Part shown: positions 680 to 62,803 of the stretch, one piece after another | How the letters are laid out: each line of letters starts with the position of its first letter | Numbering within the stretch: position 1 is the first letter of the stretch | Source of the DNA: an uncultured Gammaproteobacteria bacterium | GTDB taxonomy: Bacteria > Patescibacteriota > Microgenomatia > UBA10105 > UBA927 | Reading direction: 5' to 3' | Length of the DNA stretch: 64,000 nt | Assembly (NCBI GenBank): GCA_964609895.1 | Contig: CAZSTG010000005.1 | Coordinates: forward strand, 6,998 to 70,997 | Position numbers and translations under genes: made by a program | The notes under the pieces: model-generated | Told to the model about the DNA's origin: nothing | The model's input: only the letters and a program-made list of their open reading frames with translations | Database searches by the model: none

Positions 680-2410
680 CTATTGCCCGCTGCCGTTGTT
701 TGTAAGAAATAGTTGAATTTCCTTTGAAATATCCGTCAGTCTCTTAGAAGATCCGTCGTAGGAGAACCCTATCACCTGACCCGCGGAAAATTTTTTGTCA
801 TTGTAATCTTGCAAGAGCAACTCCTTGTCCCAATAATAGCCGAACCCCTTTCCTGAGGATTCTTCATACCATTGACTGCCAAAACCCCAGAGTCTTCTGC
901 TTACCGGCAGGAGACTATCTGGAACATTTCCCGATTTATAGTACCAAACCATCAAAATATAACCCGGATCGAGCTGCAACGGAACAGGATGATTCATGTA
1001 ATTATAGTAATTGGTATTTCCCGTCAGGTATATTACCGACTTACTGGGTAATGTCGGCAAAAGACGGGAAAATTCAGTCAATACTTGCTTGGTATCCTGA
1101 CCGTATATGACATTTAGATACACATCCCTGCGGATGAGAACCACTTGTTTATAAAAATACAACACACTTCCTGCGACTATAATTGCTGTTACCAGCAGTT
1201 TAGGAAGGGTTTTTGTAAATCTCTTGCGGAACGTATCCAAAATAATTGCCGTCATTATTCCAATCGGGATGATGCTGGCGTATACATATCTTGACTCAAC
1301 GTACGCAGTACCTCTCTGTGACAGATACACACTTATCGGAACAAAACTCAAAACGTAAAACAAAAGAGCTATAAGCAGCGTTTTTTGCTGTTTTTTATTC
1401 GTAGCATACGCAACACCGATTGTGATCGATAGGAAAAATGAGAAAACAACCGATAGAAAATCCGAAATGATGTTTTCTGATATAACACCGGCGCTATTTA
1501 TGTACGCTGCAATATTGGAATAATTAAAGTTTAAGAATCTCTCGGCCATGCGAAACATATACTTAGGAGGAATAAATGTCTGCGACAGCGATATGAATGG
1601 GTAAAAAACGGAGTTAAACAAAAATTTCAGCCAGAATGAACCGGTACTATCCGATGCCGTCAACACAATATTTTTCCCGTACATTGATATCATTCTATAG
1701 ACTCCAAGTGCAACCATCGGCAGTATCAATAGCAAATTGCTTTTCAGGATTTTTATGACACTTTGTCGGCCTTTTGAAATCAAATACTGAAAAACCGGCA
1801 AAAATATGAAAATATAGAAACTTGCATCCTTAAACAGAAAAGCCAAATAGCCGAATGCCCATGACAAAATATAATATCTTTTTTCTTCATTTTTCGAGTA
1901 CATCATCATGAACCATACGGACAACAATATGCATGTTGTTGATGTTGGCACCTGCGTAACGTTGGCTATCCATGTAAAAGCCTGATTTGCTATGCTTGCA
2001 GTCACAAAAAAGAGTCCGCTGAAAACGGCAATAAACGTATTCTTATTACATTTCTTAAGCAGGCCAAATACCAACAAACCGTTCACTATATGAAAAACAT
2101 AGGATGTTAATGCAAATGGAAGAAGATTAAATGGAAAATAATAATAGAATACATTAATAAGTAAACTCCCAAGCAATCTTCCCTTCCCCATCAGTAATTC
2201 GAAGACACTGAAATTAACAATCGTTGATTTCAAACCGTCGGTATAAATACCTGCCATAGAAAGCCATTCATCATTAAGATAATACAGCTGAGGCAATTTT
2301 TCATAGCTGTACAGCGTAATAAGGACAATGAGGACGAAATACAGAATAAAGATATATCTTTTCTTTAGATTCCCGATGAATCCGACACAAAAATCTTTAG
2401 GCTTTTTCAT
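680..2410 (-). CDS. Polytopic membrane protein with a C-terminal soluble domain, putative GT-C-type glycosyltransferase.
   Basis: 588-aa ORF (track 680..2446). The N-terminal ~400 aa are rich in hydrophobic helices ([20 protein letters not shown]...) and the C-terminal ~180 aa are hydrophilic. Start trimmed to M13 (cat at 2408-2410) to reduce overlap with fcl. Confidence 0.4.
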
Positions 2411-3359
2411 ACCCGCGGTGAACAAAGTTTTGAGTATACCAGTCAACAGTAGTTTTTAATCCTGTATCAAAGTCCGTTGTTGAGGCGAAATTAAATTCCC
2501 TTTTCGCCCGAGTGGTATCAAGCATTCTGCGCGGCTGGCCATCCGGCTTGGTTTTATCCCACACGATTTTGCCCTCATAACCGGTATACTTTTTAATCTT
2601 TTCAACCAAATCTTTTATGGATATTTCAAAACCTGCACCGATATTCACCGGATCGGATTTGTCATAGTACTCCAAAGAAAGCCTGATTGCTCTGGCAGCA
2701 TCTTCGACATACAAGAATTCACGTGTGGCTTTTCCCGTACCCCAGACGACAACCTCATTCATATGCTTTTCTTTTGCCTCTATCATACGACGGATAAGCG
2801 CGGGTATAACATGGGAAGATTCCGGATTGAAATTATCACCCGGTCCATATAAATTAACTGGCAATAAAAAGATGGAATTGAAATTATACTGCGCCCTGTA
2901 TGATTCGGATTGTACCAAAAGCATTTTTTTGGAAAGCCCATAGGGGGCATTTGTTTCCTCTGGATATCCATTCCATAAGTTTTCTTCCTTAAACGGAACT
3001 GGGGTGAATTTTGGATAACAGCAGATGGTTCCAAGAGCTACAAACTTTTCAACACCCGCCTTCCATGCTTCATGAATAAGTTGAACTCCCATCAGCAAAT
3101 TTTTGTAAAACATTTCCGCAGGATGTTCTCGATTATAGCCTATGCCGCCAACCATTGCGGCCAAATGAATAACACCATCAACTCCTTTTACCGCCTTTTT
3201 CACATCAGATAATCTGCAAAAGTTTAGCTCTTTTGAAGAAGGATAAAGCAGATGCTTTGCACCATGTTGTTGAAGCTCATGAATGACGTGCTTTCCTAAA
3301 AATCCGTTTCCTCCTGTAACAAGTATTGTCTTATTCCGTATGTCAAATGTTTTCTTCAT
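2397..3359 (-). CDS. fcl: GDP-L-fucose synthase (GDP-4-keto-6-deoxy-D-mannose 3,5-epimerase/4-reductase).
   Basis: [16 protein letters not shown] Rossmann motif plus [22 protein letters not shown] and PYGLSKK (YxxxK) follow the Fcl/GMER pattern. Start moved to the internal M (MKKTFDIR; cat 3357-3359), which is preceded by AAGAGGAG. Confidence 0.8.
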
Positions 3360-4374
3360 AATTTGTTTCTCCTCTTGATAGATACCAATAATAGTGCAGT
3401 GTAGGTTTTTTGAACACTCTAGACCATATTGTATCATCTGATACAGACCGAATATGTGTTTGTATATATCTCCGGTATCTAATAAGTGTCGGCAGCCGCC
3501 GTATATTCCACCATATGGCTCTTTGAATATTCCATGCCAGTTGATATTTCCCCTTAACCAATGAGGTCAGAAAAAACGCCTCACAGAATAGCAGATGGAT
3601 TGGCAGAATCTTTATCAACCAACCGCCGCTCAAGTTCTTTATATATGAGTGTATTCGGTTTTTAAATGAATGATATTGAATAAAGGCGTTATTCATCGAA
3701 CTGCTCGTTGCACCCATTTTATGATAGATAACGGATTTGTATGCGTACACAATCCTATACCCCGCCAGCCACACCCGATGACACATATCCGTTTCTTCAA
3801 AATACGCGAAATACGAAGGATCGAGGATATTTCCTTCAACTTCCACTTTTTTCAACACTGATTTTTTAAACATCATACACGCACCTTTTGCTGTGTAAAG
3901 GTCAATTTGTTTATCGTATTTCGGAGTATCTTTTGCGCCGAAACCGTAATGGTACAAAAATCCTGTCGGAGTTAAAAATGCCCCCACACTGTCATGTGTA
4001 TCAGGATGATCCATCAGAAGAATCTTACTTTGTGCTCCGCCGATTTTTTTGTCACTTCCCATTACTCTCACCAATTCTGTCAAAAACGTTTTTGTCACCC
4101 GTGTATCGTTATTTAAGAAAAGAATATACTCACCTTTTGCAACCTTGTACCCCACGTTATTCGCGTCAGAGAACCCAAGGTTTTCCTTATTGATGAGAAT
4201 TGTTGTTTTCGGATAGTTTTTCTTCACCCAAGATACTGATTCGTCTTTTGAAGCATTATCAACAAAGATAATTTCATAATTTTTATACTCTTGTTTGGAC
4301 AGACTATCAAAACAATCTGGTAGCCATCGAAGACCATTCCAATTAATAATAATGATTGACACTAGACCTTTCAT
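3343..4374 (-). CDS. Glycosyltransferase family 2.
   Basis: [24 protein letters not shown]...[13 protein letters not shown] is the GT2 N-terminal signature, with a DxD-like region later. There is a 4-nt ATGA overlap with the upstream gene. Confidence 0.8.
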
Positions 4375-5489
4375 GATAATCTTTCCGAATAAAACTTCTT
4401 AATAAATTTTGCGACATATGCTATCTGTTCCTGTGTGAGTTCCGGATACATCGGTAACGATACTAACTCTTCCGCATATTGTTCAGCATTTGGAAAATCT
4501 CCCTTTGTATAACCCAAATGTGAAAATGCACCGGTCAAATGAAGTGGAACGGGATAATGTATTAATGTCCCAACTCCATGATCTTTCAAATACTGCTGCA
4601 GTTCATCGCGATATTGAGCCCGAATTGCATAAATGTGAAACACACTTTGTCTGTCAGGAAGTAGCATCGGCATCACAATATCACTGCACCCATAAAGACA
4701 CTCATTATAATAGGAGGCGTTTTTTCTTCTTTGACTGTTCCATGCATCAAGATGTGACAATTTTTTACGAAGCACAGCAGCCTGAATCGAATCCAAACGG
4801 GAATTCACGCCGATAGATTCATGATGATATTTTGTTGTTTGCCCGTATTCCCTGAGCAAACGATACGTTTTGTCCAAATCATCATCATTTGTCGCAATGA
4901 CACCGCCATCCCCGTATGCACCAAGGTTCTTCCCCGGATAGAACGAAAATGCAGAAAATCTGCCGAAGGTACCTACTTTTTTGTTTTCATATACGGCGCC
5001 GTGTGCCTGACATGCGTCTTCTATAAGAAAAATTTCCTTGTTTTTTTCCTGAATCACCTGCTGAATACCTGATATATTTTCCGGTTGACCATAGAGGTGA
5101 ACTGCGATAATTGCTTTCGTTTTTTTGGTTATTTTTTTCCTAAGATCCGGCAGCGACATGCCGTAGTATTCGTCACTATCAACAAATACCGGACGAAGAT
5201 TATTACGCACTACCGCAACCGCGGTTGCATAAAACGTATTCACGGGAACGATAACCTCATCATCAGGTGACAAATGTAACGCTTCAATTCCCAAAATGAG
5301 CGCATCAGTACCTGAATTGACGGAAATGACATGTTTGACGCCTAAAAATGAAGCAAATTCTTCTTCAAAGGCGGCTACTTCCCTGCCTCCAATAAACTGC
5401 ATCTCATGAAAAATCCGACTGAATGATTCATTTACCTCAGACTGTATGGATACATATTGTTCCTGCAGATCCAGATACGGTACATTCAT
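4371..5489 (-). CDS. DegT/DnrJ/EryC1/StrS-family PLP-dependent sugar aminotransferase (FdtB-like).
   Basis: The N-terminus MNVPYLDLQEQY...EEEFASFLGVKHVISVNSGTDAL is characteristic of the DegT family. The length (372 aa) fits. Confidence 0.8.
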   Translation of the reverse strand: MNVPYLDLQEQYVSIQSEVNESFSRIFHEMQFIGGREVAAFEEEFASFLGVKHVISVNSGTDALILGIEALHLSPDDEVIVPVNTFYATAVAVVRNNLRPVFVDSDEYYGMSLPDLRKKITKKTKAIIAVHLYGQPENISGIQQVIQEKNKEIFLIEDACQAHGAVYENKKVGTFGRFSAFSFYPGKNLGAYGDGGVIATNDDDLDKTYRLLREYGQTTKYHHESIGVNSRLDSIQAAVLRKKLSHLDAWNSQRRKNASYYNECLYGCSDIVMPMLLPDRQSVFHIYAIRAQYRDELQQYLKDHGVGTLIHYPVPLHLTGAFSHLGYTKGDFPNAEQYAEELVSLPMYPELTQEQIAYVAKFIKKFYSERLS

Positions 5490-6016
5490 AGACTGTGCGT
5501 GTGGGCAATATCCTTTTTATGTTTTATAACACGGGCGGGGTTTCCGACAACCACCGCGTCATCCTCAACATCTTCGGTAACGACACTCCCTGCGCCGATA
5601 AGACAGTTTTTCCCGATATGAATGCCAGGCAGAATCGTCGCATTTGACCCGATGACAGTTCCGTCCCCCACAATAGCACCGCCTACTTCTTGGACGCATT
5701 TCGGACATGGCGGATACGGATCATCGGTAAACACAACATGGGGAGCGATAATAACGTTATTTCCGAGAGTAACCGATTCCAAAAAACACGATGTGTGAAT
5801 TTTTGTGTCATTGCCAATTTTATTACCCGGACCCAAATAGGAATTTACTCCCACCGAAACCCGATCACCGATCGTGTTCTGTTCCCGTATAACGGCATTA
5901 TGGCCGGTTACGAAACCGCTTCCATACACACTTCCGTCATAGATAACCGTCCCCGAGCGGACTATTGCATCTGGGTGCTGTTTTTTAAATGTCAGTTCAT
6001 CAATTATGTCTGCCAT
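5486..6016 (-). CDS. Hexapeptide-repeat (left-handed beta-helix) sugar N-acetyltransferase (FdtC/PglD-like).
   Basis: Repeated [LIV]G hexapeptides: VGVNSYLGPGNKIGNDTKIH...IGSNATILPGIHIGKNCLIGAGSVV. It lies between the aminotransferase and the cupin isomerase. Confidence 0.75.
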   Translation of the reverse strand: MADIIDELTFKKQHPDAIVRSGTVIYDGSVYGSGFVTGHNAVIREQNTIGDRVSVGVNSYLGPGNKIGNDTKIHTSCFLESVTLGNNVIIAPHVVFTDDPYPPCPKCVQEVGGAIVGDGTVIGSNATILPGIHIGKNCLIGAGSVVTEDVEDDAVVVGNPARVIKHKKDIAHTHSL

Positions 6017-6018
6017 AG

Positions 6019-6426
6019 CTACAGTAGTGAGTATGGAATAGTGTCCGGTGCGTCATGGTGATACGGTTTATCTGCATAATCAATCATCATTGCGGTTTCA
6101 GAAATGTTTTGAAATGCATGAGCAATATTTTTTCCTATAAATACCCGCTCGTATTCATCGTTATTCCCGTCTAAAACCCGTTCCATGCGTTCATGCGTCT
6201 TCATGTCCTCTGCAACAAGTTTCACTGTACCCGCAATCACGACAAACCACTCGTCTTTCGTCTTGTGATAATGATTTCCCCGTATGACGCCTCTTTGTTC
6301 AAAGGTCACAAAATATATCTGACCGAGTTTTTGATGGTCTTTCGACATTTCATCACCTTTAATAAAGTCAACGAGAAAACCCCGTTTATCTCTTCGTCTC
6401 ACTGCCTTATCAAAAACTATATTCAT
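6019..6426 (-). CDS. Small cupin, FdtA/WxcM-like sugar 3,4-ketoisomerase (putative).
   Basis: 135 aa with RGNHYHK...G...D motifs, resembling FdtA/QdtA-type dTDP-4-keto-6-deoxyglucose 3,4-isomerases. Sits next to an acetyltransferase and an aminotransferase, which is the fdtA-fdtC-fdtB arrangement. Confidence 0.55.
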   Translation of the reverse strand: MNIVFDKAVRRRDKRGFLVDFIKGDEMSKDHQKLGQIYFVTFEQRGVIRGNHYHKTKDEWFVVIAGTVKLVAEDMKTHERMERVLDGNNDEYERVFIGKNIAHAFQNISETAMMIDYADKPYHHDAPDTIPYSLL

Positions 6427-9611: not shown

Positions 9612-10718
9612 CTATTTTTTAACCACGCTTGTCAGCAATGTCATACTTTGTTTCGCGACCGTATTCCAATGCAAGCTTTTTTCCCACGCCTTTCCATTTT
9701 TTTGAAACGCGGTGTATCTTTTTGTATCTTTATACAATTTGATTGCCTCGCGCGCCATGTCCTGCGGAGAATTATTCTGAATTACCACGCCGGTTTTTGC
9801 GTGTTGTACCACATCTTTCAGTCCTTCAACGTTATACACAACTGCAGGCGTTCCGACAGAGGCTGCTTCCAAGACTACCAGCCCCCATCCTTCTTTCACT
9901 GATGCATGAAGCAGTATATGTGCCCGCGACATGTATTCATATTTCTCAACTTCTGATACCGCTCCAATAAATGTCACGTTTTCTTTAATACCGTATTCTT
10001 CCACCATTTGCTCTAATTCATTCAAATATTTTTTTTCACCTTTGCCCACAATCCAAAGCTTTGCGTTCGTTTGCTCTCTTGTTATAAATGAAAACGCTTT
10101 TATCACCTCTTCTATTCCTTTCATACGCACAACGCGGGAAACAAAAATATACGTCGGCACAGACTCCTTTACTTCTTCAATTGCATGAATCCGTTTAATG
10201 ATAGGACACGGTATGGCAACACATTGTTCTTTCGGAATTCCCCATGAGGCGAGCTCATCAATCGTTGAGGGTGCATCCGTCCATATACGGCAGTGCCGGT
10301 ACCATCTGAATGCCCAACGTTCAAGAAGCTTCCCAATTGGTGCAATCGGCCACTTATACATATAGTCCCAAATCTCATCTGCTACTTCATGAATGAATGC
10401 AACCACAGGTGTGCGGGTAAACAATGGTGCAAAAAAAGGCAGTCCGTGTACTTCATCAACAATCACGTCATAATTTTTTCCTGCTGCCAAAACAAACAAA
10501 GGAGCTATCAAATGAATAGTGAGCATTCCACCAAAACGCAAAAACTCAACCCCTTCGATTGTCTCCTGACGGCTTTTTTGTTCATAATACCCGCCTGATA
10601 CCCACGTCACTGTATGCCCTGCCTTTGTCCACGCCTTTGTATGCTCAAACGTGACAATTTCAGCGCCTCCCGCGCTTGGATGCCATGGATCCCGCCAATT
10701 AAGAAGTAGTATGTTCAT
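9612..10718 (-). CDS. Glycosyltransferase family 4 (GT-B).
   Basis: MNILLLNWRDPWHPSAGGAEI at the N-terminus and the C-terminal E-x7-E region EGWGLVVLEAASVGTPAVV. Confidence 0.8.
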   Translation of the reverse strand: MNILLLNWRDPWHPSAGGAEIVTFEHTKAWTKAGHTVTWVSGGYYEQKSRQETIEGVEFLRFGGMLTIHLIAPLFVLAAGKNYDVIVDEVHGLPFFAPLFTRTPVVAFIHEVADEIWDYMYKWPIAPIGKLLERWAFRWYRHCRIWTDAPSTIDELASWGIPKEQCVAIPCPIIKRIHAIEEVKESVPTYIFVSRVVRMKGIEEVIKAFSFITREQTNAKLWIVGKGEKKYLNELEQMVEEYGIKENVTFIGAVSEVEKYEYMSRAHILLHASVKEGWGLVVLEAASVGTPAVVYNVEGLKDVVQHAKTGVVIQNNSPQDMAREAIKLYKDTKRYTAFQKNGKAWEKSLHWNTVAKQSMTLLTSVVKK

Positions 10719-10720: not shown

Positions 10721-11512
10721 TTATCCCACATTCACTCGAAAATTCAATTCCGGATCATAACGCCATTTTCGTTTGTTTGCATTGTCATAGTAATGACGAA
10801 TCCGAAGACGGTAAAACACAGCGAGCGTGTCCTTCATCATATTCCACACGGTCACTACTATTTTTTTCATGGTAATTGAGGAGGTGGCAACAGCAAAATT
10901 CAGTTCAACAGGCGCTTCATAAATTTTTGTATATCCTAAACGATTGGCAACAGCCAAAATTTCTATATCAAATGCAAATTGTTTGACAAGAAGGCGTGGC
11001 AATACATCTTCAAGCAATTTCCGCTTGTACAATTTCATTCCAACTTGCGAATCTCTGACGTGGATGCCAAACAATATATGTATTACTCGTTGATATCCCC
11101 AAGACAACACTCTCCGATACATTGGATATTCCACTTTCGAATCCGGATGACGTTTACTCCCAATCACTGCATCTGCATCCTGAAAATCAAACTGCGCAAG
11201 CATCGGCAAAAGCGCTTTTGCAGACAAATCGCCCCCTGCATCCATGAATCCGATCACATCCCCTTCCGCATGAGCACATCCATATCTGACTGCATACCCT
11301 TTTCCATGATTGGTCGCATACCCCACTAACTTCACCCGCTGATCCTTAATCTTTTGCACTTCCTCGCCGCTCTTGTCCAGATAGCCGTCAAGCACAGGAA
11401 TTATTTCAAAAGGAACAGTAATGGATTCGAGTACCTCCATAATCGCCCCGATATCACGTCTGATCGTTTTTTCTTGTTTATACACAGGAATAATGAGGCT
11501 GAATAATTTCAT
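10721..11512 (-). CDS. Glycosyltransferase family 2 (Dpm1-like).
   Basis: FSLIIPVYKQEKTI...VLDGYLDKSGEE followed by MDAGGD. Start corrected to MKLFSLII (cat 11510-11512), abutting the flippase stop. Confidence 0.75.
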   Translation of the reverse strand: MKLFSLIIPVYKQEKTIRRDIGAIMEVLESITVPFEIIPVLDGYLDKSGEEVQKIKDQRVKLVGYATNHGKGYAVRYGCAHAEGDVIGFMDAGGDLSAKALLPMLAQFDFQDADAVIGSKRHPDSKVEYPMYRRVLSWGYQRVIHILFGIHVRDSQVGMKLYKRKLLEDVLPRLLVKQFAFDIEILAVANRLGYTKIYEAPVELNFAVATSSITMKKIVVTVWNMMKDTLAVFYRLRIRHYYDNANKRKWRYDPELNFRVNVG

Positions 11513-12768
11513 ACATCCTTTCTTTTTACATACAGATAATACGCTCCAAGACCCAAAACAAGCAAGGCTGAAACGCCGATATTTATATAAATCACCTTCT
11601 GGATAGTCTGATGCCACATGGAAATACCGATAATTTGCAAAAGAGCACATACCACAGGGATAATCCATATCTTCGTTTTTCCCGTTGCCAAAAAAGTCGT
11701 AGTAAACATGTTACCTATGGAATACAGGACGAGAAACAAACCGAAGAGTCCCAAAAATGAGGATCCGCCAACATAGGATGAACCAAACAGTATGCTGATA
11801 ATGAAATTTGGAAACAAAAAGTACATCGCGGTAATTCCCAAAGAAATTGCAGTGACACTGAGAAGTCCAATACCTATGATCTGACCTGTTTTTTCCCCTT
11901 TTGCAGTACGTTCCGAAAGGATAGGATAAAACACCGTTGCAAGAATTGAGGATGCATAAAAAATAATTTTACCCAAAAGTGCCAGCGATGCGTAGACCCC
12001 CGCGTCAACAGCGGCAAAGTAATGACGAACCAAAATCATGTCCGTTGAATAAATAGAGGTCATACCAAGTGTCACCAAAAGTGTCGGAACCGCAAACAAA
12101 AACGCTTCCCGTTTCGTCAGATGCATTGGCGCTGGCTTTGCGGTAAACAAAAACCGAAGCGGCAAAAAATTCAACCCATACATAATTACAACTGATATCA
12201 GTGTCGCAACAAGCACGCCCATCACATAAAACTGCACCGCCGGGATACTGAGAAGCAGTTTTACGAGTACCGCGCTCGCACCCAATATACTTACCCAAAA
12301 AAACTTTTGGTATCCCTGCAGAACACTCGACATGATGACAGTCAGAAGCGAAAAAACAAAAATAAGATAGACGATTATAAACTTAATGGGAGACTGAATA
12401 TGTAAATATTTCGTGATGATGGGGGATGCCACAATAATGACCGGCAATAACGCCGTGCACATGATGATTGCAGCTTTTGTAACTCTGGTAAACAATGATT
12501 TTGTCTGACCAATCTCACCATGCGCTTTAAATCCTGATACAAATTTTATCAGCACGAGCGCGCCGACATTGAGTGGAACGGTAAATATATAAAAAATCGA
12601 CAAAAGTGACGACAATTCTCCGTATCCTGAGGGACCAATCCAACGCCCCATCAATAAGTGATATACATAGGAAGCAACATTTGCTCCCATAGAGCCCATG
12701 AACATGATCATGCTGTCTCTGGCAAGAGAATGAGATGCTATTTTTTGAATCAACGATTTTATCTTCAT
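11509..12768 (-). CDS. Wzx-like oligosaccharide flippase (MOP/polysaccharide biosynthesis protein family).
   Basis: 419 aa with ~12 predicted TM helices, a MATE/Wzx-like N-terminus (MIMFMGSMGANVASYVYHLLMGRWIGPSGYGE) and glycan-cluster context. Confidence 0.65.
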   Translation of the reverse strand: MKIKSLIQKIASHSLARDSMIMFMGSMGANVASYVYHLLMGRWIGPSGYGELSSLLSIFYIFTVPLNVGALVLIKFVSGFKAHGEIGQTKSLFTRVTKAAIIMCTALLPVIIVASPIITKYLHIQSPIKFIIVYLIFVFSLLTVIMSSVLQGYQKFFWVSILGASAVLVKLLLSIPAVQFYVMGVLVATLISVVIMYGLNFLPLRFLFTAKPAPMHLTKREAFLFAVPTLLVTLGMTSIYSTDMILVRHYFAAVDAGVYASLALLGKIIFYASSILATVFYPILSERTAKGEKTGQIIGIGLLSVTAISLGITAMYFLFPNFIISILFGSSYVGGSSFLGLFGLFLVLYSIGNMFTTTFLATGKTKIWIIPVVCALLQIIGISMWHQTIQKVIYINIGVSALLVLGLGAYYLYVKRKDV

Positions 12769-12769: not shown

Positions 12770-13741
12770 TCATCTGTTTTTTGTGTGCAGGTGTATCTGT
12801 TTGTCTATCCACGTATAGGTCTGTCTCAGTCCTTCCTCAAGAGACACTCTTGGTTTCCACTGTAGCATACGTCTTGCTGCTTGGATATCAGCATTTCTCC
12901 CCCGTACACCCTGCGGCTTATATCTGTCGTGCGTGAGATGAATTTTTTTACCGGCAATGTCCGCAATAAGGAGTGCCATTTCATCAACGGATATCAATCT
13001 GTTAGAGCCTATGTTTACCGGCGTTCTCACCTCCGACCGCATCAATGCATCTATCCCTCTGATACAGTCATTTATATAGCAGTAAGATCGTGTTTGTTTC
13101 CCGTCCCCCCATACAGTAACAGTTCCGTTGTCCTCAGCTTCTGCGACTTTTCTGCAGAGAGCTGCGGGTGATTTTTCCCTGCCCCCTGTCCATGTTCCAA
13201 GCGGCCCATATACATTATGAAACCGCGCAATGCGCGTTTCCAACCCATAATCTTCATAATATGCAAGACACAACTGTTCCGCTGTCAGTTTCTCCCACCC
13301 ATATTTGGTATCAGGATCAGCAGGAAATGCATCGGATTCACGAAGTCCGCTATTTGCCATTCGCCGTTGCTTTTCCTTCGGATATACACATGCACTGGAA
13401 GAAAAAAAGAACCGATTCACCTTCTCGTTTTTTGCGCTCTCAAGCATGTTGATATTGATCAGCAGATTATCATGCATGATATCCGCATGCACCGAATCAA
13501 TAAATGCAACCCCTCCCATGTTTGCTGCAAAATTATATACTTCACTTACACCTCTCACAGCTTTCTTTGCATTTTTCGCGTCGCGAAGATCAAGCAGCAA
13601 ATATTCATCGGCAGCAGTTTTTTCAAACTCCGGTTTTTTGATATCTACACCACGAACACTATATCCCTTATCTTTCAAAAACTTCACCATGTGGTGACCG
13701 ATAAACCCGCCAGCTCCGGTAATAAGTGCTGTATGTTTCAT
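12770..13741 (-). CDS. NAD-dependent sugar-nucleotide epimerase resembling GDP-mannose 3,5-epimerase (GME).
   Basis: ITGAGGFIGHHMVKFLK...LLLDLRD...NFAANMGGVAFI...RFFFSSSACVYP matches the plant/bacterial GME pattern (GAGGFI...DLR...AADMGGMGFI...FFYASSACIYP) closely. Start set at MKHTALITG (cat 13739-13741). Confidence 0.55.
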   Translation of the reverse strand: MKHTALITGAGGFIGHHMVKFLKDKGYSVRGVDIKKPEFEKTAADEYLLLDLRDAKNAKKAVRGVSEVYNFAANMGGVAFIDSVHADIMHDNLLININMLESAKNEKVNRFFFSSSACVYPKEKQRRMANSGLRESDAFPADPDTKYGWEKLTAEQLCLAYYEDYGLETRIARFHNVYGPLGTWTGGREKSPAALCRKVAEAEDNGTVTVWGDGKQTRSYCYINDCIRGIDALMRSEVRTPVNIGSNRLISVDEMALLIADIAGKKIHLTHDRYKPQGVRGRNADIQAARRMLQWKPRVSLEEGLRQTYTWIDKQIHLHTKNR

Positions 13742-13746: not shown

Positions 13747-14430
13747 CTAAACAAAACGGTATTTCATAAGTGTCCAGAACGCCACCACTCCGTCTTTCCA
13801 TGTCAGTTTTTTTCCCTCGGAAAACTTCCTCCCAAAATATGAGATTGGAACCTCATAGATCTGGTGTCCTTTTTTCAGAATTTTCGCGGTTATTTCCGGT
13901 TCCATGTCAAACCGCTTTGACTCTATCCGCATTCCCGTAATCACAGCCTTCCGAAACACCTTGAATCCCGTCTCCATATCGGTAATATTGGCGTTGTACA
14001 ATATATTACACACAAGTGTCACAAATTTGTTTCCCTGCGCATACACAAACATGGTGGAAAGGTGTGGTCCGAGAAACCTTGACCCGTACACAACCTGCAC
14101 CTGTTTGTTGGTAAACGGTTCAAGAAGCACCGGATAGTCCTTCGGATCGTATTCCAGATCCGCATCCTGAAATAAAATAAAGTCTCCTGCTGCATGTTTT
14201 AGTCCAATAGTAACGGCACTTCCTTTTCCCTCATTTTTCTTTTTATATATCACTGTGACTTTTTTCTCCCATGCTTTCAATTTTTTCCTTGTCCCATCGG
14301 TTGACCCGTCATCCACGACAATAACCTGTTTGATCCAATGAGGAAGTACTGCGGCCGTGACACGACGTAAAATCTCGTCAATGGTGTGCACCTCATTGTA
14401 GACAGGGATAATAATGGATAATTTCTTCAT
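13747..14430 (-). CDS. Glycosyltransferase family 2 (Dpm1/GtrB-like, soluble).
   Basis: LSIIIPVYNEVHTIDEIL...VIVVDDGSTDGT followed by QDADLEY. Start corrected to MKKLSIII (cat 14428-14430), an ATGA overlap with the upstream gene. Confidence 0.75.
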   Translation of the reverse strand: MKKLSIIIPVYNEVHTIDEILRRVTAAVLPHWIKQVIVVDDGSTDGTRKKLKAWEKKVTVIYKKKNEGKGSAVTIGLKHAAGDFILFQDADLEYDPKDYPVLLEPFTNKQVQVVYGSRFLGPHLSTMFVYAQGNKFVTLVCNILYNANITDMETGFKVFRKAVITGMRIESKRFDMEPEITAKILKKGHQIYEVPISYFGRKFSEGKKLTWKDGVVAFWTLMKYRFV

Positions 14431-15539
14431 GCAATAAACCACCCGCGTAAAAAAAGAGCTGTAGCCATTATCTCGAAAACGGCGCTGACGGACAAGAGTG
14501 CTGTACGAACCTTCGCTGATTTGACGGCGCCGAGAATCATAAATAGCGGCACTGCTGCCAAAATATACCGAGGCATGGAAGAAAATGTGCCGGTAAGCGT
14601 AGGGATTGTGATAACCAACAGACAATACAAAAATGCCGCCAAGGAAATCTGTTTTCTTCCAAACCATAACACGATATACGAAACACCGGTCATCACAAAT
14701 TCAAGCACGGTCACAAGATAGGACATGATTGTCGGTTGCATATACGCAGTGACGATCATTTTCAGATATCGCCACACTACCTGTGGAGGAAAAATCAGTG
14801 TGCTCCCGCTTCTGTTTGCACCAAACGCAGACTGTACATGCATAAACAAAAACGGATCCTGTTGCGTTACATTCAAAAAATACATGTACCAAAACAATCC
14901 AACAGGCATCATACAGAATCCGATGAGGTCAATACCACGTATTTTTTTCGGCTTCCACTTTATATATTCAATCAATGCATATATAGCCAGACAAATACCG
15001 ACAATCCGAATTGCGCCGGCAACAGCTATCACAACGCCTGTCCACATGAACTGTTTCTTCGATACAAAATACATCACAAGAGCCACACACAGAAAAAACA
15101 GACCCTCAGTATACACCGCCCGAAAGAAAAAACTTGTCGGAAATGCAAGAATAAAAAGTATCGTAAACTTCGCATATTCGACTGATTTTTTTACCAGAAG
15201 CCGATATAAAACCATCAGTCCTATCAAAAATGAAACAAGTGAAATTCCTACACCTATATATTCGTACGATATCGGAACTATCTGATGAAACGCACGCAGT
15301 AGTAATGGATAGACAGGGAAAAATGCATGCGAATACTGATAATACCACGATTCAGCAATTTTTACGTAATGCACCCCGTCAAAATTTCCCCATGGAGAAA
15401 CACCAAAATAGCCGGTCCGTATCGGAATACTATCCGAAACCTTTTCTATCAGTTGCAAAAGTATCCCCCAAGCTGCAAACGCGAAGAAAACAAACTTATT
15501 TTTTTGCCAAAATTGTTTCATATACAGCAACGGTTTCAT
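14427..15539 (-). CDS. PIG-V/Gpi18 (GT76)-like mannosyltransferase-type GT-C membrane protein.
   Basis: FGVSPWGNFDGVHYVKIAESWYYQYSHAFFPVYPLL matches the conserved W-DG-hY-IAe-GY...AFFP-yP loop of the PIG-V family. 370 aa, polytopic. Confidence 0.5.
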   Translation of the reverse strand: MKPLLYMKQFWQKNKFVFFAFAAWGILLQLIEKVSDSIPIRTGYFGVSPWGNFDGVHYVKIAESWYYQYSHAFFPVYPLLLRAFHQIVPISYEYIGVGISLVSFLIGLMVLYRLLVKKSVEYAKFTILFILAFPTSFFFRAVYTEGLFFLCVALVMYFVSKKQFMWTGVVIAVAGAIRIVGICLAIYALIEYIKWKPKKIRGIDLIGFCMMPVGLFWYMYFLNVTQQDPFLFMHVQSAFGANRSGSTLIFPPQVVWRYLKMIVTAYMQPTIMSYLVTVLEFVMTGVSYIVLWFGRKQISLAAFLYCLLVITIPTLTGTFSSMPRYILAAVPLFMILGAVKSAKVRTALLSVSAVFEIMATALFLRGWFIA

Positions 15540-16551
15540 GAGCAGTTTTTTCCCAGCTGAATGTTTTTGCCCAAGCTATACTATCCATACACATCTTTTT
15601 TCTTGCCTGAGGCGATAATGAAAGCATAGTGAGTATTGTATCTGCCATATTTTCTACACTACTTGTATCCATCTTCAATGAAGGCCCTGCAATTTCAGAA
15701 AGGCTTGAATTGTCCCCTAAGACAACAGGACAGCCACATGCCATTGCCTCCAAAACAGGCAGTCCAAACCCTTCATATAATGAAGGCTCAACTAAACAAC
15801 ATGCCATGTTATATAAGACAGCTAAATCTTCCTGACTGACAAAACCCGTCATTGTGACATGATCTTCGAGATGCAAATCATGAATATTTTGTTCAATTTT
15901 TTGAGTCTCCGGTAATTCACTTTTTTTGAATGCCCCGCCAATCAGCACTAAGTGACTATTCTTCTTTTTTTGAAGAACTCGCAAAAAAGCCGATAACAGT
16001 CCAAGCACATTTTTATTCCAGTTTACGTCACCGACAAACAGCAAAAACTGCTCTGGCAATCGGTATTTTTCACCAATTGCCTGTTGCATTTGTTTATTCT
16101 GTTTGACGTCATAACCAGGAGTTGCTGCAGAATATACCACATGAATTTTGCTTTCCGGTATATGCACAATGCGTTCAACATCTTTTTTTGAACTTTTGGA
16201 AACCGTAATAATCCCATCTGCACGTTTTAAGGCAATTTTCTGCATGTTCCATTTTACTCTCCCCCGTATACCGGCAGGAAACTGTTCCGGAAACACCAAC
16301 GGGATCAGATCGTGAACCGTTACCACCGTAGGAATCGATTTTTCCCATGGTAATGTCAAAAAAAACGGATCGAAATAAGGATAATGCACTATTTCTGCTG
16401 TATCGGGTATTTTTTCACCTCGAGTAAAAAAACTATACGAATGCTTTGATTCATACCGCCGTAATGCATCAATAAGGTTTTTTGTATATACGCCCACTCC
16501 CCGCACGGCATGCCCAGAAGAAAGCGGAGTAATGTCTATTGCTATATTCAT
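15496..16551 (-). CDS. Glycosyltransferase family 4 (GT-B).
   Basis: MNIAIDITPLSSGHAVRGVGVYT...LYEGFGLPVLEAMACGCPVV (E-x7-E). Start corrected to M25 (cat 16549-16551), an ATGA overlap. Confidence 0.8.
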   Translation of the reverse strand: MNIAIDITPLSSGHAVRGVGVYTKNLIDALRRYESKHSYSFFTRGEKIPDTAEIVHYPYFDPFFLTLPWEKSIPTVVTVHDLIPLVFPEQFPAGIRGRVKWNMQKIALKRADGIITVSKSSKKDVERIVHIPESKIHVVYSAATPGYDVKQNKQMQQAIGEKYRLPEQFLLFVGDVNWNKNVLGLLSAFLRVLQKKKNSHLVLIGGAFKKSELPETQKIEQNIHDLHLEDHVTMTGFVSQEDLAVLYNMACCLVEPSLYEGFGLPVLEAMACGCPVVLGDNSSLSEIAGPSLKMDTSSVENMADTILTMLSLSPQARKKMCMDSIAWAKTFSWEKTAHETVAVYETILAKK

Positions 16552-20986: not shown

Positions 20987-21741
20987 AGCATGTTTCTGTA
21001 TTTTTTATACGCAATCGGAAAGTGAAGCGCTGACCAATATGCAAACACCAGCCCATACCACCCGTCCATAAACCCTTTGTGCCTTACAAACAAAAGAAAA
21101 AACATTTTAACTGGTTGCCAAATCATATAAGAACACCATGTCCGGATATTCACGGGAATGTTTTTTTCCTTCATAAACATCGCAGTTAAACTCGTGTATG
21201 AATCGGCTTTTTTCCAATAATCCTCAGATGTTCTGTACGAATAATGCAGCATCGGCTCTTTGATATACCCGATAGCCCCGTCAACAGCAATTTGCTCATG
21301 GACATCTTTGCATGGCAGTTTTGCTTTCCCGTTTTTCACAAGACGAATCACGTAATCGGGATATTGCCCGCCTTTTTTCATGAAATGTCCCCAGAAATTA
21401 TTCCGTCTTGGAATATAATATCCGTTTATTTTTTCATCATTTTCATTCACAATCTGTAAAATTTCATCTTTTAACTCATCGGTAATCACTTCGTCAGCGT
21501 CCATCTGGAGAATCCATGTTCCTTTGCACGCATCCATAGCTTTTTGCTTGTTGATATGAAAAATAGCGGGATTACTCGCAGGAATAATGTGAGAAGTATA
21601 TTTTTTGGCAATAGTAACGGTCTTGTCTGTTGAGCCACCATCGACGACGACAATTTCATCCGTCCATGAAGCAACGGATGCAAGACATGCATCAAGATTT
21701 TTTTCTTCGTTATACACTGCAATCGCCACTGATAATTTCAT
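20983..21741 (-). CDS. Glycosyltransferase family 2 (WaaE/KdtX-like).
   Basis: KLSVAIAVYNEEKNLDACLASVASWTDEIVVVDGGSTDKT. Paralogous to 41855..42613 and 43514..44428. Start corrected to M11 (cat 21739-21741), overlapping the stop at 21738. Confidence 0.75.
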   Translation of the reverse strand: MKLSVAIAVYNEEKNLDACLASVASWTDEIVVVDGGSTDKTVTIAKKYTSHIIPASNPAIFHINKQKAMDACKGTWILQMDADEVITDELKDEILQIVNENDEKINGYYIPRRNNFWGHFMKKGGQYPDYVIRLVKNGKAKLPCKDVHEQIAVDGAIGYIKEPMLHYSYRTSEDYWKKADSYTSLTAMFMKEKNIPVNIRTWCSYMIWQPVKMFFLLFVRHKGFMDGWYGLVFAYWSALHFPIAYKKYRNML

Positions 21742-52562: not shown

Positions 52563-52569
52563 GAATATG

Positions 52570-56029: not shown

Positions 56030-56989
56030 TTAGACCCGTTCTCGCCAATAGTTGAGAAGGTCTTCCATTGTTTTTTCAAATGGGATTTCCGGCTTCCATC
56101 CTGTTTTTGCCACAAATTTACTATTGTCGCCAATAAGAACCGGAACTTCAGACGGACGCATACGTGCTGGATCCTGTCTGATCTCCACTTTCACTTTACT
56201 CATGCCGATAAGCATATTGAGCATGTCTTTGATCACGACTGCGTTCCCTGTACAGATATTATATACGTCTCCCGCATCGCATTTTTCAACTGCAAGCAGG
56301 TATCCTCGCACCATATCACGGACATCCGTCCAGTCCCGTTGCGCTTCAAGATTACCGACATGGATCACCGGTTCCAGTTTGCCTTTTTCTATCATCGCAA
56401 TCTGTTTTGCAAAATTGGATGTTACAAATGTCTCACCGCGTCTCGGACCGGTGTGATTGAATCCTCTTGTTCGGATAATGTTCATGCCATAGGAGCAAAA
56501 ATATTGATATCCGAGATAGTCCATGGCAACTTTTGAAACGCCGTATGGGCTCTGTGGCCGAAGCGGATTTGTCTCCTTAATCGGCACTTCATCCGGATGA
56601 ACCAACCCATATTCTTCACTTGAACATGCAATCTGGATGGCAGGATTGATTTTCGCCTGACGAACCGCTTCAAAAAGGTTTGCTGATCCGATAATGTTGA
56701 CTTCCAGTGTTACAGACGGTGATACCCATGATGTTGGAACGAAGGACTGGGCTGCAAGATGAAAAATATAATCAGGACGAATCCTTGAAATGGTTCCGTA
56801 TAAACTATGGGAATCTAAAATATCAGCATCTTCCAAATGGAGTTGTGGTTTAATGCCTTCAATAAGATCCATGCGGGATCGAGGCCTGCTTAATCCATAG
56901 ACTTCAAAACCTTTGGAAAGCAAAAGTTCCGCCATGTGGCTTCCTACGAAACCACCGATTCCTGTTATAAGTGCTTTTTTAGCTGCCAT
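56030..56989 (-). CDS. GDP-4-keto-6-deoxy-D-mannose reductase (Rmd)-like short-chain dehydrogenase.
   Basis: KKALITGIGGFVGSHMAELL...PYGVSKVAMD (YxxxK)...DPARMRPSEV...KTGWKPEI parallels Rmd (DPARMRRAE...TGWKPEI). 319 aa. AGGAGG lies 10 nt upstream. Confidence 0.6.
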   Translation of the reverse strand: MAAKKALITGIGGFVGSHMAELLLSKGFEVYGLSRPRSRMDLIEGIKPQLHLEDADILDSHSLYGTISRIRPDYIFHLAAQSFVPTSWVSPSVTLEVNIIGSANLFEAVRQAKINPAIQIACSSEEYGLVHPDEVPIKETNPLRPQSPYGVSKVAMDYLGYQYFCSYGMNIIRTRGFNHTGPRRGETFVTSNFAKQIAMIEKGKLEPVIHVGNLEAQRDWTDVRDMVRGYLLAVEKCDAGDVYNICTGNAVVIKDMLNMLIGMSKVKVEIRQDPARMRPSEVPVLIGDNSKFVAKTGWKPEIPFEKTMEDLLNYWRERV

Positions 56990-60276: not shown

Positions 60277-60281
60277 ATGTT

Positions 60282-60755
60282 TTATGTTATTTTTGTATTG
60301 GTGATCGGTTTTCCCTGCACCCAATCATACCCAATCGTCTTGTCGTCATATTGAATCCGTCCTTCTTCTTTCGGATCGTATGTTTTACTTGTGGCATAAA
60401 CAAAATCACATGGACCTTCAAGAACCTTCATGCCGTGCGCGACACCTGCAGGAATTTTCAACACAATATTATCCGGTTCTTCCCCCAGTATATATTCCAT
60501 TGTTTCCCCTTTTGTCAAAGACCCCTCGCGGGTATCATAGAGTGCTGCTTTGATCTTACCTTTTACACAAAACCACCAGTCAATCTGTGTGGTGTGGACG
60601 TGCCACGCCTTGACCACGCCTTCCACCATAAATGAATGGGAAAGTTGTCCGAATCCTTCGGAAAAAAATTCATCCGTATTTCTGATAATTTCTTCAAAAT
60701 ATCCCCGTTCGTCAGGATGTCGTACCAATTTCTTAATCATCACACCGTCAATCAT
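60282..60755 (-). CDS. rmlC: dTDP-4-dehydrorhamnose 3,5-epimerase.
   Basis: RGYFEEIIRNTD...AWHVHTTQIDWWFCVKGKIKAALYDTR. 157 aa cupin. Confidence 0.85.
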   Translation of the reverse strand: MIDGVMIKKLVRHPDERGYFEEIIRNTDEFFSEGFGQLSHSFMVEGVVKAWHVHTTQIDWWFCVKGKIKAALYDTREGSLTKGETMEYILGEEPDNIVLKIPAGVAHGMKVLEGPCDFVYATSKTYDPKEEGRIQYDDKTIGYDWVQGKPITNTKIT

Positions 60756-62751: not shown

Positions 62752-62803
62752 ATAAATATCATACCTATTTACCCATAAAAATACCAGACATGAAGGCTGT
62801 CAT

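What the first reader, a model, noticed from the sequence alone, without database searches (positions are those of the whole stretch)
12770..13741. GDP-mannose 3,5-epimerase (GME)-like enzyme in a bacterial surface-glycan cluster
The motif string GAGGFIGHH...LLLDLRD...NFAANMGGVAFI...RFFFSSSACVYP tracks the plant GME signature (the vitamin-C pathway enzyme that makes GDP-L-galactose/GDP-L-gulose) much better than it tracks generic UDP-Glc 4-epimerases. Bacterial GME homologs are rare, and L-galactose or L-gulose in a prokaryotic glycoconjugate would be unusual. The gene sits between a Wzx flippase and a Dpm1-like GT2.
Basis: partly seen in the sequence, partly recalled or inferred. Interest (0 to 1): 0.55.

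Follow-up and report, generated by a model that had tools for sequence, protein, structure and literature searches.

The report
GDP-mannose 3,5-epimerase gene, optional cassette
The gene is almost certainly a GDP-mannose 3,5-epimerase, the enzyme that makes activated L-galactose/L-gulose, in the surface-sugar operon of a tiny uncultured (Microgenomates/CPR) bacterium. Such genes are common and already characterised in bacteria, so it is a routine family member whose one unusual trait is that close relatives carry or lack it as a clean one-gene cassette.

Summary
Window 12770-13741 (minus strand) encodes a 323-aa extended SDR containing all four quoted motifs. Its best solved relatives are plant GDP-mannose 3,5-epimerases (GME): 329 bits and 49% identity, against about 110 bits for the next family. 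All eight diagnostic GME residues are conserved: Ser116, Cys118, Tyr147, Lys151, Asn176, Lys190, Arg218 and Arg282. A bootstrapped tree places the protein with Arabidopsis GME (98% split support), not with GalE, HldD, RmlB, Gmd or Fcl. An AlphaFold model superposes on GME crystal structures (TM 0.94). The neighbours are a weakly scoring MOP/Wzx-family flippase and a GT2 whose best solved match is Dol-P-mannose synthase.

The rarity claim fails. At least 533 species-representative genomes across many bacterial and archaeal phyla encode a relative. More than 8000 90%-identity clusters exist. A bacterial GME was characterised in 2019.

One new point emerged. In the conserved Microgenomates operon, GME is an accessory one-gene cassette. 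It is present at 5 directly inspected GT2|flippase junctions and absent from 9, and the two states are interleaved on the flippase tree.

Verdict: new member of a known kind, with modest interest. Enzyme activity and the L-sugar's destination remain inferred.

The parts
12770..13741 (-). GDP-mannose 3,5-epimerase (GM35E/GME) coding sequence, 323 aa plus stop
13697..13717 (-). codons for the NAD+-binding glycine motif GAGGFIG (residues 9-15)
   Evidence: G9, G11, G12 and G15 invariant in 120 homologues
13388..13396 (-). codons for Ser116-Ala117-Cys118: the triad serine and the catalytic acid/base cysteine (At S143/C145)
13289..13303 (-). codons for Tyr147...Lys151 (YxxxK, At Y174/K178)
13172..13174 (-). 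codon for Lys190 (At K217), the catalytic base that separates GME (Lys) from GDP-fucose synthase (His)
   Evidence: PMC8787198
12896..12898 (-). codon for Arg282 (At R306), the arginine proposed to acidify the catalytic cysteine
   Evidence: PMC6678494
13747..14430 (-). upstream GT2 (227 aa), polyprenol-phosphate-sugar-synthase-like (DPM1/ArnC/AglJ type); its start overlaps the stop of the upstream gene by 4 nt
14427..15539 (-). multi-pass membrane protein (370 aa); no Pfam hit itself, but homologues carry PF04188 (Gpi18/PIG-V-type GT-C mannosyltransferase), GT87 or PMT_2
11509..12768 (-). downstream MOP/Wzx-family flippase-like membrane protein (419 aa)
10721..11512 (-). second GT2 (263 aa), weaker Dol-P-Man-synthase-like match; part of the conserved block
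9612..10718 (-). GT4 glycosyltransferase of the conserved block
15496..16551 (-). GT4 glycosyltransferase of the conserved block
2397..3359 (-). paralogous GDP-L-fucose-synthase-like SDR (Cys/His pair), another GDP-mannose-derived branch in the same window
56030..56989 (-). GMD/RMD-like SDR (best solved match GDP-6-deoxy-D-lyxo-4-hexulose reductase 2pk3, E=5e-90), a third GDP-mannose-derived branch

Best explanation
The gene encodes a functional GDP-mannose 3,5-epimerase (GM35E/GME) of a Microgenomates-group (CPR/Patescibacteria) bacterium. By analogy with the Arabidopsis and Methylacidiphilum enzymes, tightly bound NAD+ with Tyr147 (assisted by Ser116 and Lys151) oxidises C4 of GDP-alpha-D-mannose. 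Cys118 and Lys190, on opposite faces, then deprotonate and reprotonate C5 and C3, with Arg282 tuning the cysteine. The 4-keto intermediate is reduced back to give GDP-beta-L-galactose, with GDP-L-gulose as a side product. The gene is tightly packed and probably co-transcribed in an operon built around GDP-mannose and polyprenol-phosphate-mannose chemistry. That operon holds a DPM1-like GT2, Gpi18-, MptA/B- and PMT_2-like GT-C enzymes, GT4 and GT2 transferases and a MOP flippase. GME therefore diverts part of the GDP-mannose pool into an activated L-hexose, which one of the operon's transferases adds to a lipid-linked cell-surface glycan. In this lineage GME is an optional single-gene cassette, so the L-sugar is a strain-variable decoration rather than a core component. 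Shown here: family membership, catalytic residues, fold, gene context and the presence/absence polymorphism. Inferred: enzyme activity, product ratio, which transferase uses the product and what the final glycan is.
For: Sequence: Arabidopsis GME E=3e-97, 329 bits, against 111 bits or less for any other solved family, with 49.4% identity. That is about the same as the characterised bacterial MfGM35E shows to AtGME (50.5%, PMC6678494). All eight residues that the GM35E review uses to define the family are conserved (S143, C145, Y174, K178, N203, K217, R243, R306). In the same alignment columns Fcl has His, and GalE, HldD, RmlB and Gmd lack the Cys/Lys pair. Tree: the GME split has 98.2% support and GME+Fcl 96.2% in 500 bootstraps. 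Structure: the AF2 model has pLDDT 91.2, and the top 14 Foldseek PDB hits are all plant GMEs at TM 0.94 and rmsd 1.8 A, with the next tier 14 orders of magnitude weaker in E-value. Context: the GT2's best PDB hit is Dol-P-Man synthase 5mlz. Homologues of the upstream membrane protein are Gpi18-like GT-C. The flippase family is assigned through homologues. Fcl-like and RMD-like GDP-sugar enzymes lie in the same window. Genes are separated by 1-5 nt or overlap by 4 nt. Cassette: the conserved block carries GME in the window, L082, L083, L092 and the P0126 contig. It lacks GME in L088-L091 and L093-L097. The indel matches the ORF exactly.
Against: No biochemistry was done, so activity and product ratio are inferred from homology. 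No phosphomannomutase or GDP-mannose pyrophosphorylase was found in the 64-kb window by tblastn with E. coli CpsG/CpsB, so the substrate supply is assumed to be encoded elsewhere. No transferase allele co-varies with GME presence, so the user of GDP-L-Gal or GDP-L-Gul is unidentified. The flanking GT2 is equally conserved in GME-less loci and is therefore unlikely to be dedicated to the L-sugar. Some family members are fused to UDP-Glc/GDP-Man dehydrogenase domains, which hints that not every clade member acts on plain GDP-mannose.
Confidence: 0.85

Rival explanations
1. The protein is a GME-family enzyme, but the physiologically used product is GDP-L-gulose (the C5 epimer), as proposed for bleomycin biosynthesis and the Thermoplasma acidophilum L-gulose lipid. 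The downstream transferase would be an L-gulosyltransferase.
For: GM35Es release GDP-L-gulose as a side product and also GDP-altrose. Prokaryotic L-gulosides are the documented natural examples (PMC8787198). Nothing in the sequence analysis distinguishes L-Gal-using from L-Gul-using systems.
Against: GDP-L-galactose is the major product of the characterised GM35Es, including the bacterial one (PMC6678494, PMC8787198). Fusion of a family member to a NodZ-like fucosyltransferase domain (P0255) fits L-Gal better, because L-Gal is a 6-hydroxy analogue of L-fucose and fucosyltransferases are known to accept GDP-L-Gal.
Confidence: 0.1
2. The protein is a GME-fold 3,5- (or 5-) epimerase acting on a different GDP-sugar made nearby, such as GDP-mannuronate, GDP-D-rhamnose (6-deoxy-mannose) or a GDP-heptose.
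For: Library relatives at 45-46% identity are fused to UDPG/GDP-Man dehydrogenase domains (P0273, P0298). The window encodes an RMD-like enzyme that would make GDP-D-rhamnose.
Against: The window's own dehydrogenase is a UDP-glucose dehydrogenase (4a7p E=2e-122, against GDP-Man DH at 3e-55) and lies 43 kb away. All sugar- and phosphate-contacting residues named for AtGME are conserved. Identity to AtGME equals that of the bacterial enzyme proven to use GDP-mannose.
Confidence: 0.04
3. The protein is a misread generic SDR, such as a UDP-hexose 4-epimerase, ADP-heptose 6-epimerase or GDP-fucose synthase, and the GME likeness is superficial.
For: NCBI annotates close homologues only as 'NAD-dependent epimerase/dehydratase family protein'. 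The best NCBIfam model is GDP-L-fucose synthase.
Against: That Fcl hit scores 144 bits against a 500-bit cut-off, and NCBIfam simply returned no GME model. Identity to E. coli Fcl, GalE and HldD is 29%, 23% and 22%, against 49% to AtGME. The Lys190/Arg282 pattern is the GME pattern, not the Fcl one. The tree and the fold search both place it with GME.
Confidence: 0.01

Closest known systems
MfGM35E, GDP-mannose 3,5-epimerase of Methylacidiphilum fumariolicum SolV (UniProt I0K0X9; Gevaert et al. 2019, PMC6678494)
   Same: A bacterial, compact GME without plant-type extensions. It is about 50% identical to Arabidopsis GME (50.5%, against 49.4% here). It has the same GxxGxxG, S/Y/K triad, Cys/Lys pair and conserved Arg, and a proposed role in a surface glycan.
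   Different: Its sequence could not be retrieved here, so no direct alignment or tree placement was made. It comes from a thermoacidophilic verrucomicrobium, where LPS is the suggested destination. The window organism is a CPR bacterium whose operon is dominated by GT-C enzymes, and there the gene is an optional cassette.
Arabidopsis thaliana GME (PDB 2c59/2c54/2c5a/2c5e) and Myrciaria dubia GME (8sg0/8skb)
   Same: Same fold (TM 0.94, rmsd 1.8 A over 324 columns), 49% identity, and every catalytic and substrate-contact residue named in the literature is conserved.
   Different: The plant enzymes carry N-terminal extensions of about 27 residues and C-terminal extensions of about 35 residues that are absent here (aligned range 34-343 of 379). 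They feed vitamin C and cell-wall synthesis rather than a bacterial lipid-linked glycan. AtGME has the GxxGxxA variant, while this protein has GxxGxxG.
GDP-L-fucose synthase (Fcl/WcaG/GMER)
   Same: It is the sister family in the tree (96% support). It is also an SDR that performs C3/C5 epimerisation on a GDP-4-keto sugar with a catalytic Cys. A paralogue of this type sits in the same window (2397-3359).
   Different: Only 28-29% identity. The catalytic base is His rather than Lys, and E. coli Fcl has Lys rather than Arg at the Arg282 position. Fcl needs a 4-keto-6-deoxy substrate from Gmd and consumes NADPH, whereas GME recycles its own NAD+.
Prokaryotic L-gulose routes: BlmG-type enzymes of the bleomycin cluster and the Thermoplasma acidophilum L-gulose lipid pathway (as reviewed in PMC8787198)
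   Same: They are proposed to use a GME or GME-like epimerase on GDP-mannose to supply an L-hexose for a prokaryotic glycoconjugate.
   Different: Those systems use the minor product L-gulose in a secondary metabolite or a membrane lipid.

Membership tests
GDP-mannose 3,5-epimerase (GM35E/GME; CEP1, extended SDR) | Extended-SDR Rossmann fold with an N-terminal glycine motif GxxGxxG/A for NAD+ | tested here: met
   GAGGFIG at residues 9-15. PF01370 E=7e-48. AF2 model pLDDT 91.2 superposes on GME crystal structures at TM 0.94.
GDP-mannose 3,5-epimerase (GM35E/GME; CEP1, extended SDR) | Catalytic triad [ST]xnYx3K for C4 oxidation/reduction (At S143, Y174, K178) | tested here: met
   Ser116, Tyr147 and Lys151 align to these positions and are invariant in 120 homologues.
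GDP-mannose 3,5-epimerase (GM35E/GME; CEP1, extended SDR) | Cys/Lys acid-base pair for the C5 and C3 epimerisations (At C145, K217). Lys rather than His separates GME from GMER/Fcl. | tested here: met
   Cys118 and Lys190. In the same columns Fcl has C/H, Gmd and RmlB have E/F, GalE has T/G and HldD has A/S.
GDP-mannose 3,5-epimerase (GM35E/GME; CEP1, extended SDR) | Arg that acidifies the catalytic Cys (At R306), the diphosphate-binding Arg (R243) and the conserved Asn (N203) | tested here: met
   Arg282, Arg218 and Asn176. E. coli Fcl has Lys at the R306 position.
GDP-mannose 3,5-epimerase (GM35E/GME; CEP1, extended SDR) | Phylogenetic placement with a characterised GME rather than with other nucleotide-sugar SDRs | tested here: met
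   NJ tree of 25 SDRs, 314 columns, 500 bootstraps. The split containing the window protein, AtGME and 13 prokaryotic homologues has 98.2% support. Limitations: distance method, small outgroup sample, and MfGM35E not included.
GDP-mannose 3,5-epimerase (GM35E/GME; CEP1, extended SDR) | Catalyses GDP-D-mannose to GDP-L-galactose (plus GDP-L-gulose) | not testable with these tools
   Needs recombinant enzyme and an HPLC/NMR assay.
GDP-L-fucose synthase (GMER/Fcl) | Cys/His catalytic pair and a score above the NCBIfam NF047922 cut-off | tested here: not met
   Lys190 instead of His. NF047922 scores 144 bits against a 500-bit cut-off.
UDP-glucose 4-epimerase (GalE) / ADP-heptose 6-epimerase (HldD) | Score above the TIGR01179 / TIGR02197 cut-offs, and grouping with E. 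coli GalE or HldD | tested here: not met
   82.9 bits against 262.3 and 68.7 against 274.6. Identity is 22-23%, and both are separated from the protein in the tree.
Wzx / MOP-superfamily oligosaccharide flippase (neighbour 11509-12768) | Match to PF01943/PF13440 above the gathering threshold | tested here: inconclusive
   The protein itself scores PF01943 at 20.2 bits against 28.2, although over the full profile length. Homologues at 50-90% identity carry PF01943/PF13440 and the NCBI name 'oligosaccharide flippase family protein'.
Polyprenol-phosphate sugar synthase GT2 (DPM1/ArnC/GtrB/AglJ type; neighbour 13747-14430) | GT2 catalytic domain most similar to polyprenol-phosphate glycosyltransferases. 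Donor and lipid acceptor are demonstrated biochemically. | tested here: inconclusive
   The best PDB hits are Dol-P-Man synthase 5mlz (4e-20) and ArnC (2e-15). The best NCBIfam hits are AglJ, ArnC and PpgS, all below their cut-offs. Activity was not testable.

The most novel reading that the evidence does not exclude
In Microgenomates (CPR) bacteria, a one-gene GME cassette that is repeatedly gained or lost at a fixed site in a conserved GDP-mannose/polyprenol-P-mannose glycan operon acts as a strain-level switch. It would add L-galactose or L-gulose to the cell surface in place of, or on top of, D-mannose or L-fucose residues, using existing promiscuous transferases. This would be a cheap route to surface-antigen or phage/host-receptor variation in episymbiotic bacteria.
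Probability: 0.25. Interest if true: 0.5.

Novelty: new member of a known kind. Interest (0 to 1): 0.3.

Why it matters
As a gene identification it matters little. GM35E is a well-defined family with crystal structures and a characterised bacterial member, and this work shows relatives in hundreds of prokaryotic species.

There are two practical points. First, NCBI's HMM library returned no GME model, so these genes, including this one and its CPR relatives, are deposited as generic 'NAD-dependent epimerase/dehydratase'. L-galactose/L-gulose capacity is therefore invisible in most bacterial annotations.

Second, the clean presence/absence of the gene inside an otherwise conserved CPR surface-glycan operon is a natural experiment. 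GME-plus and GME-minus variants even occur in the same metagenome. That contrast could be used to learn what L-sugars do on the surface of these uncultured, host-dependent bacteria and which glycosyltransferases accept GDP-L-galactose, which also has biocatalytic interest.

Tried and rejected
1. Co-variation of a transferase allele with GME. The downstream GT4 (9612-10718) looked bimodal: 83-87% identity in GME-plus loci and 61-65% in three GME-minus loci. However, GME-minus L091 and L093 carry the 'plus-type' allele (85-89% and 83%), so the idea was rejected.

2. Deletion scar. The 56-bp GT2-flippase spacer of GME-less L088 shows no similarity to GME genes beyond shuffled controls. The direction of change, gain or loss, is undetermined.

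3. Compositional sign of recent transfer. GC and GC3 of GME (0.448/0.41) are within the range of its neighbours.

4. Promoter and terminator scans of 8-20 kb. Promoter-like sites are at chance level, and there is no terminator flanking GME.

5. Donor specificity of the two GT4s from solved relatives. The best hits are UDP-sugar enzymes at weak scores, which is uninformative.

6. ManB/ManC in the window by tblastn with the E. coli proteins. None were found.

7. Organism name from exact-match cluster look-up. No names were returned. Taxonomy was inferred instead from named homologues of the flippase and the membrane protein.

8. The first bootstrap figure of 69% was an artefact of counting rooted clades in arbitrarily rooted NJ replicates. 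It was recomputed on splits as 98.2%.

9. A literature search for Patescibacteria plus L-galactose found nothing relevant.
Full report
OBSERVATION. The minus strand carries an ORF ending at 12770. Its longest reading starts at 13801 (343 aa). The in-frame ATG at 13741 gives a 323-aa protein beginning MKHTALITGAGGFIGHH. The closest orthologues on long contigs (P0004, P0005, P0006, P0008) are all 323 aa and their gene calls start at the equivalent Met. All four quoted motifs are present, at residues 9, 48, 70 and 110.

WHAT THE PROTEIN IS. Pfam sees only the generic SDR families (PF01370 E=7e-48, PF16363). NCBIfam returns no model that the protein passes. The best is GDP-L-fucose synthase at 144 bits against a 500-bit cut-off, with GalE at 83 against 262 and HldD at 69 against 275. 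So NCBIfam returned no GME model.

Against all PDB sequences the picture is sharp. Arabidopsis GME (2c59, 2c54, 2c5a, 2c5e) scores 326-329 bits (E about 1e-97) and Myrciaria GME (8sg0) scores 318 bits. The next family reaches only 111 bits.

Identity to AtGME is 49.4% over 308 aligned positions. That is essentially what the biochemically characterised bacterial enzyme MfGM35E shares with AtGME (50.5%; PMC6678494).

The GM35E review (PMC8787198) lists the residues that define the family and separate it from GalE and from GDP-fucose synthase. These are S143/Y174/K178 (triad), C145/K217 (acid/base pair, where Fcl has His instead of Lys), R306 (acidifies the Cys, where Fcl has Lys), R243 and N203. 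All eight are conserved here as S116, Y147, K151, C118, K190, R282, R218 and N176.

A joint alignment included E. coli Fcl, Gmd, RfbB, RfbD, GalE and HldD, taken from annotated K-12 loci, together with the window's own SDR paralogues. Only the GME group shows the S-C-Y-K-N-K-R-R pattern.

A neighbour-joining tree (25 sequences, 314 columns) groups the window protein with AtGME and 13 prokaryotic homologues. On splits, 500 bootstraps give 98.2% for the GME group and 96.2% for GME+Fcl as sisters. An earlier figure of 69% came from counting rooted clades and is superseded.

An AlphaFold2 model built on 120 homologues has mean pLDDT 91.2. Its 14 best Foldseek matches in the PDB are all plant GMEs (TM 0.94, rmsd 1.8 A, E about 1e-40). 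The next matches, UDP-xylose synthase and GalE, are at E about 1e-26.

HOW COMMON IT IS. The claim that bacterial homologues are rare does not hold.
- The 90%-clustered protein collection returns the maximum 8000 scored candidates, all at E<=1e-20. The best 120 are 59-81% identical, and JGI already names several of them GDP-D-mannose 3',5'-epimerase.
- The best 80 of these (51-60% identity) span Planctomycetia, Acidobacteriota, Chloroflexota, Actinomycetota, Gemmatimonadota, Bacteroidota, Proteobacteria, Firmicutes, Omnitrophota, Staskawiczbacteria (CPR), Bathyarchaeota and Methanoregula.
- In the 50%-identity library, 1018 cluster representatives score E<=1e-30.
- In 83 loci, the neighbours within 3 kb of GME recurrently include WcaJ-like priming transferases (13 loci), Gmd (8), Fcl (7) and WcaI-like GT4 (8). 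GME in polysaccharide clusters is thus the norm.
- The literature already covers a characterised bacterial GM35E (PMC6678494) and discusses roles in LPS, bleomycin (L-gulose) and the Thermoplasma L-gulose lipid (PMC8787198).

ORGANISM AND SURROUNDINGS. Homologues of the downstream membrane protein at 76-77% identity are annotated in a Microgenomates group bacterium and a Candidatus Gottesmanbacteria bacterium. Homologues of the upstream membrane protein point the same way. The window therefore comes from a Microgenomates-group CPR/Patescibacteria bacterium.

Nearly the whole 64 kb is one glycosylation region, with almost all genes on the minus strand. It contains:
- at least 15 GT-C-type membrane proteins (PMT_2, YfhO, GT87, PTPS_related, plus several large membrane proteins with no hit);
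- about a dozen GT2s and three GT4s;
- a strong Polysacc_synt_3 flippase at 44430-45959;
- rmlABCD, a UDP-glucose dehydrogenase, and an aminotransferase/acetyltransferase/FdtA-like trio;
- a GDP-fucose-synthase-like SDR (2397-3359; PDB Fcl E=6e-65);
- an RMD/GMD-like SDR (56030-56989; best hit 2pk3, E=5e-90).

The immediate neighbours were checked individually.
- The 227-aa GT2 just upstream of GME (13747-14430) is most similar to P. furiosus Dol-P-mannose synthase (5mlz, E=4e-20), then to ArnC. Among NCBIfam models it is closest to AglJ, ArnC, PpgS and Dol-P-hexose transferase. 'Dpm1-like' is a fair description.
- The 419-aa downstream protein reaches only 20.2 bits on PF01943 (cut-off 28.2), though across the whole profile. 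Its homologues carry PF01943/PF13440 and the name oligosaccharide flippase. 'Wzx-family' is reasonable but rests on transitivity.
- The 370-aa membrane protein upstream of the GT2 has no Pfam hit itself. Its homologues carry PF04188 (Gpi18/PIG-V mannosyltransferase), GT87 or PMT_2.

The block therefore looks built around GDP-mannose and polyprenol-phosphate-mannose. No ManB or ManC is in the window. Gene spacing is 1-5 nt or 4-nt overlaps, and pattern scans show no internal promoter or terminator signal above chance. This is consistent with one transcription unit.

THE CASSETTE. This is the one result that goes beyond confirmation. The block MptA/B-like - YfhO-like - GT4 - (Gpi18-like) - GT2 - [GME] - flippase - GT2 - GT4 - PMT_2 is conserved in related contigs, with flanking proteins 70-90% identical to the window's.

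GME sits between the GT2 and the flippase in five directly inspected cases: the window, L082, L083, L092 and the P0126 contig.

In nine other contigs the GT2 and the flippase are directly adjacent. These are L088 (a 1.02-Mb Microgenomates contig), L089 (Gottesmanbacteria), L090, L091 and L093-L097.

Further details of the polymorphism:
- L082 and L088 align at 80-85% nucleotide identity on both sides, and the difference is exactly the GME ORF against a 56-bp spacer.
- On a tree of the flippase proteins, GME-plus and GME-minus loci are interleaved. GME-plus P0131 is sister to GME-minus P0128. More than one gain or loss event is therefore needed.
- L082 (plus) and L091 (minus) come from the same sample.
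- GME orthologues are less similar (70-72%) than most flanking proteins.
- No scar, no compositional anomaly and no co-varying transferase allele were found.

MECHANISM, WITH SHOWN AND INFERRED STEPS SEPARATED. Shown: family membership, intact catalytic apparatus, fold, operon context and accessory status. Inferred from the characterised family (PMC8787198, PMC6678494): NAD+-dependent transient C4 oxidation by Tyr147; C5 and C3 proton exchange by Cys118 and Lys190; then re-reduction, giving GDP-L-galactose with GDP-L-gulose as a by-product.

Further inferred: one of the operon's Leloir transferases adds the L-hexose to a lipid-linked glycan that the MOP protein flips. The flanking DPM1-like GT2 is equally conserved in GME-less loci, so it is probably not the dedicated user. 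Because L-galactose is a 6-hydroxy analogue of L-fucose and fucosyltransferases accept GDP-L-Gal, a promiscuous fucosyl- or mannosyl-transferase is a plausible user. A library relative fused to a NodZ-like fucosyltransferase domain (P0255) fits this idea. It remains speculation for this locus.

VERDICT. The identification as GME is supported with high confidence. The premise that made it interesting, rarity in bacteria, is not supported. It is a new member of a known, widespread and biochemically characterised family. The accessory-cassette behaviour in a CPR surface-glycan operon is a modest, new and testable side result.

Noticed in passing
homologues P0076, P0084, P0092, P0109 (alignment A1): Four of 120 close GME homologues (about 62% identical) have the catalytic Cys replaced by Leu or Val, and two of them also have the catalytic Lys replaced by Arg. 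The rest of the active site is intact. They may be inactive or functionally shifted GME paralogues.
   Followed up: no
library proteins P0255, P0273, P0298, P0244, P0367: GME domains occur fused to a NodZ-like (GT23) fucosyltransferase domain, to complete UDP-Glc/GDP-Man dehydrogenase modules, to an FkbM methyltransferase and to a GT2 domain. The fusions hint at partner enzymes and possibly at GDP-uronate substrates in some clades.
   Followed up: partly
window 680-56133: About 55 kb of almost uninterrupted glycosylation genes, nearly all on the minus strand: at least 15 GT-C-type membrane proteins (PMT_2, YfhO, GT87, PTPS_related, Gpi18-like), about 12 GT2, 3 GT4 and two MOP flippases. No phosphoglycosyl-transferase (WbaP/WecA-type) was detected in the ORFs scanned.
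   Followed up: partly
window 21738-23396, 31970-33523, 33580-35325, 48267-49832, 51375-52625: Five large (416-581 aa) predicted membrane proteins inside the glycan region have no Pfam hit at E<=1e-3. They are probably further divergent GT-C enzymes or polymerases.
   Followed up: no
window 4371-6426: A DegT/PseC-type aminotransferase, a hexapeptide acetyltransferase and an FdtA-like cupin isomerase lie together, with rmlABCD at 58376-61489. This suggests synthesis of a dTDP-3-acetamido-3,6-dideoxyhexose.
   Followed up: no
window 6019-6426 and 60282-60755: Two small cupin-type (RmlC/FdtA-like) proteins score above threshold on Pfam PF14667 'Polysacc_synt_C', which is nominally the C-terminal domain of MOP flippases (62.6 and 30.5 bits). 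This is an odd cross-hit that may reflect the Pfam model rather than biology.
   Followed up: no
window 56030-56989 and 2397-3359: The window has an RMD-like reductase (closest to 2pk3) and an Fcl-like GDP-fucose synthase, but no clear canonical GDP-mannose 4,6-dehydratase. The RMD-like enzyme may be bifunctional, or Gmd is encoded elsewhere.
   Followed up: partly
window 14427-15539 versus L082 5224-6321, L089, L090, L095-L097: The Gpi18-like membrane protein upstream of the GT2 is itself variable. It is 76-82% identical in most relatives, only 45% in L082, and absent from several blocks. It is a second variable position in the operon.
   Followed up: partly
L083 11149-11499: A small 23S_rRNA_IVP-family gene (116 aa) is inserted between the GT4 and PMT_2 genes of the otherwise syntenic block in one relative.
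   Followed up: no
window 12770-13741 and NCBI homologues P0040, P0097: There is an annotation gap. NCBIfam returned no model that recognises GME, so NCBI records name these proteins only 'NAD-dependent epimerase/dehydratase family protein', while JGI names them GDP-D-mannose 3',5'-epimerase.
   Followed up: yes
window 61777-63720: Beyond the glycan region lie a CAP/SCP-domain secreted protein, a TsaD/TsaB-like fragment and a Sua5/YrdC protein. These are the only housekeeping-type genes in the window.
   Followed up: no
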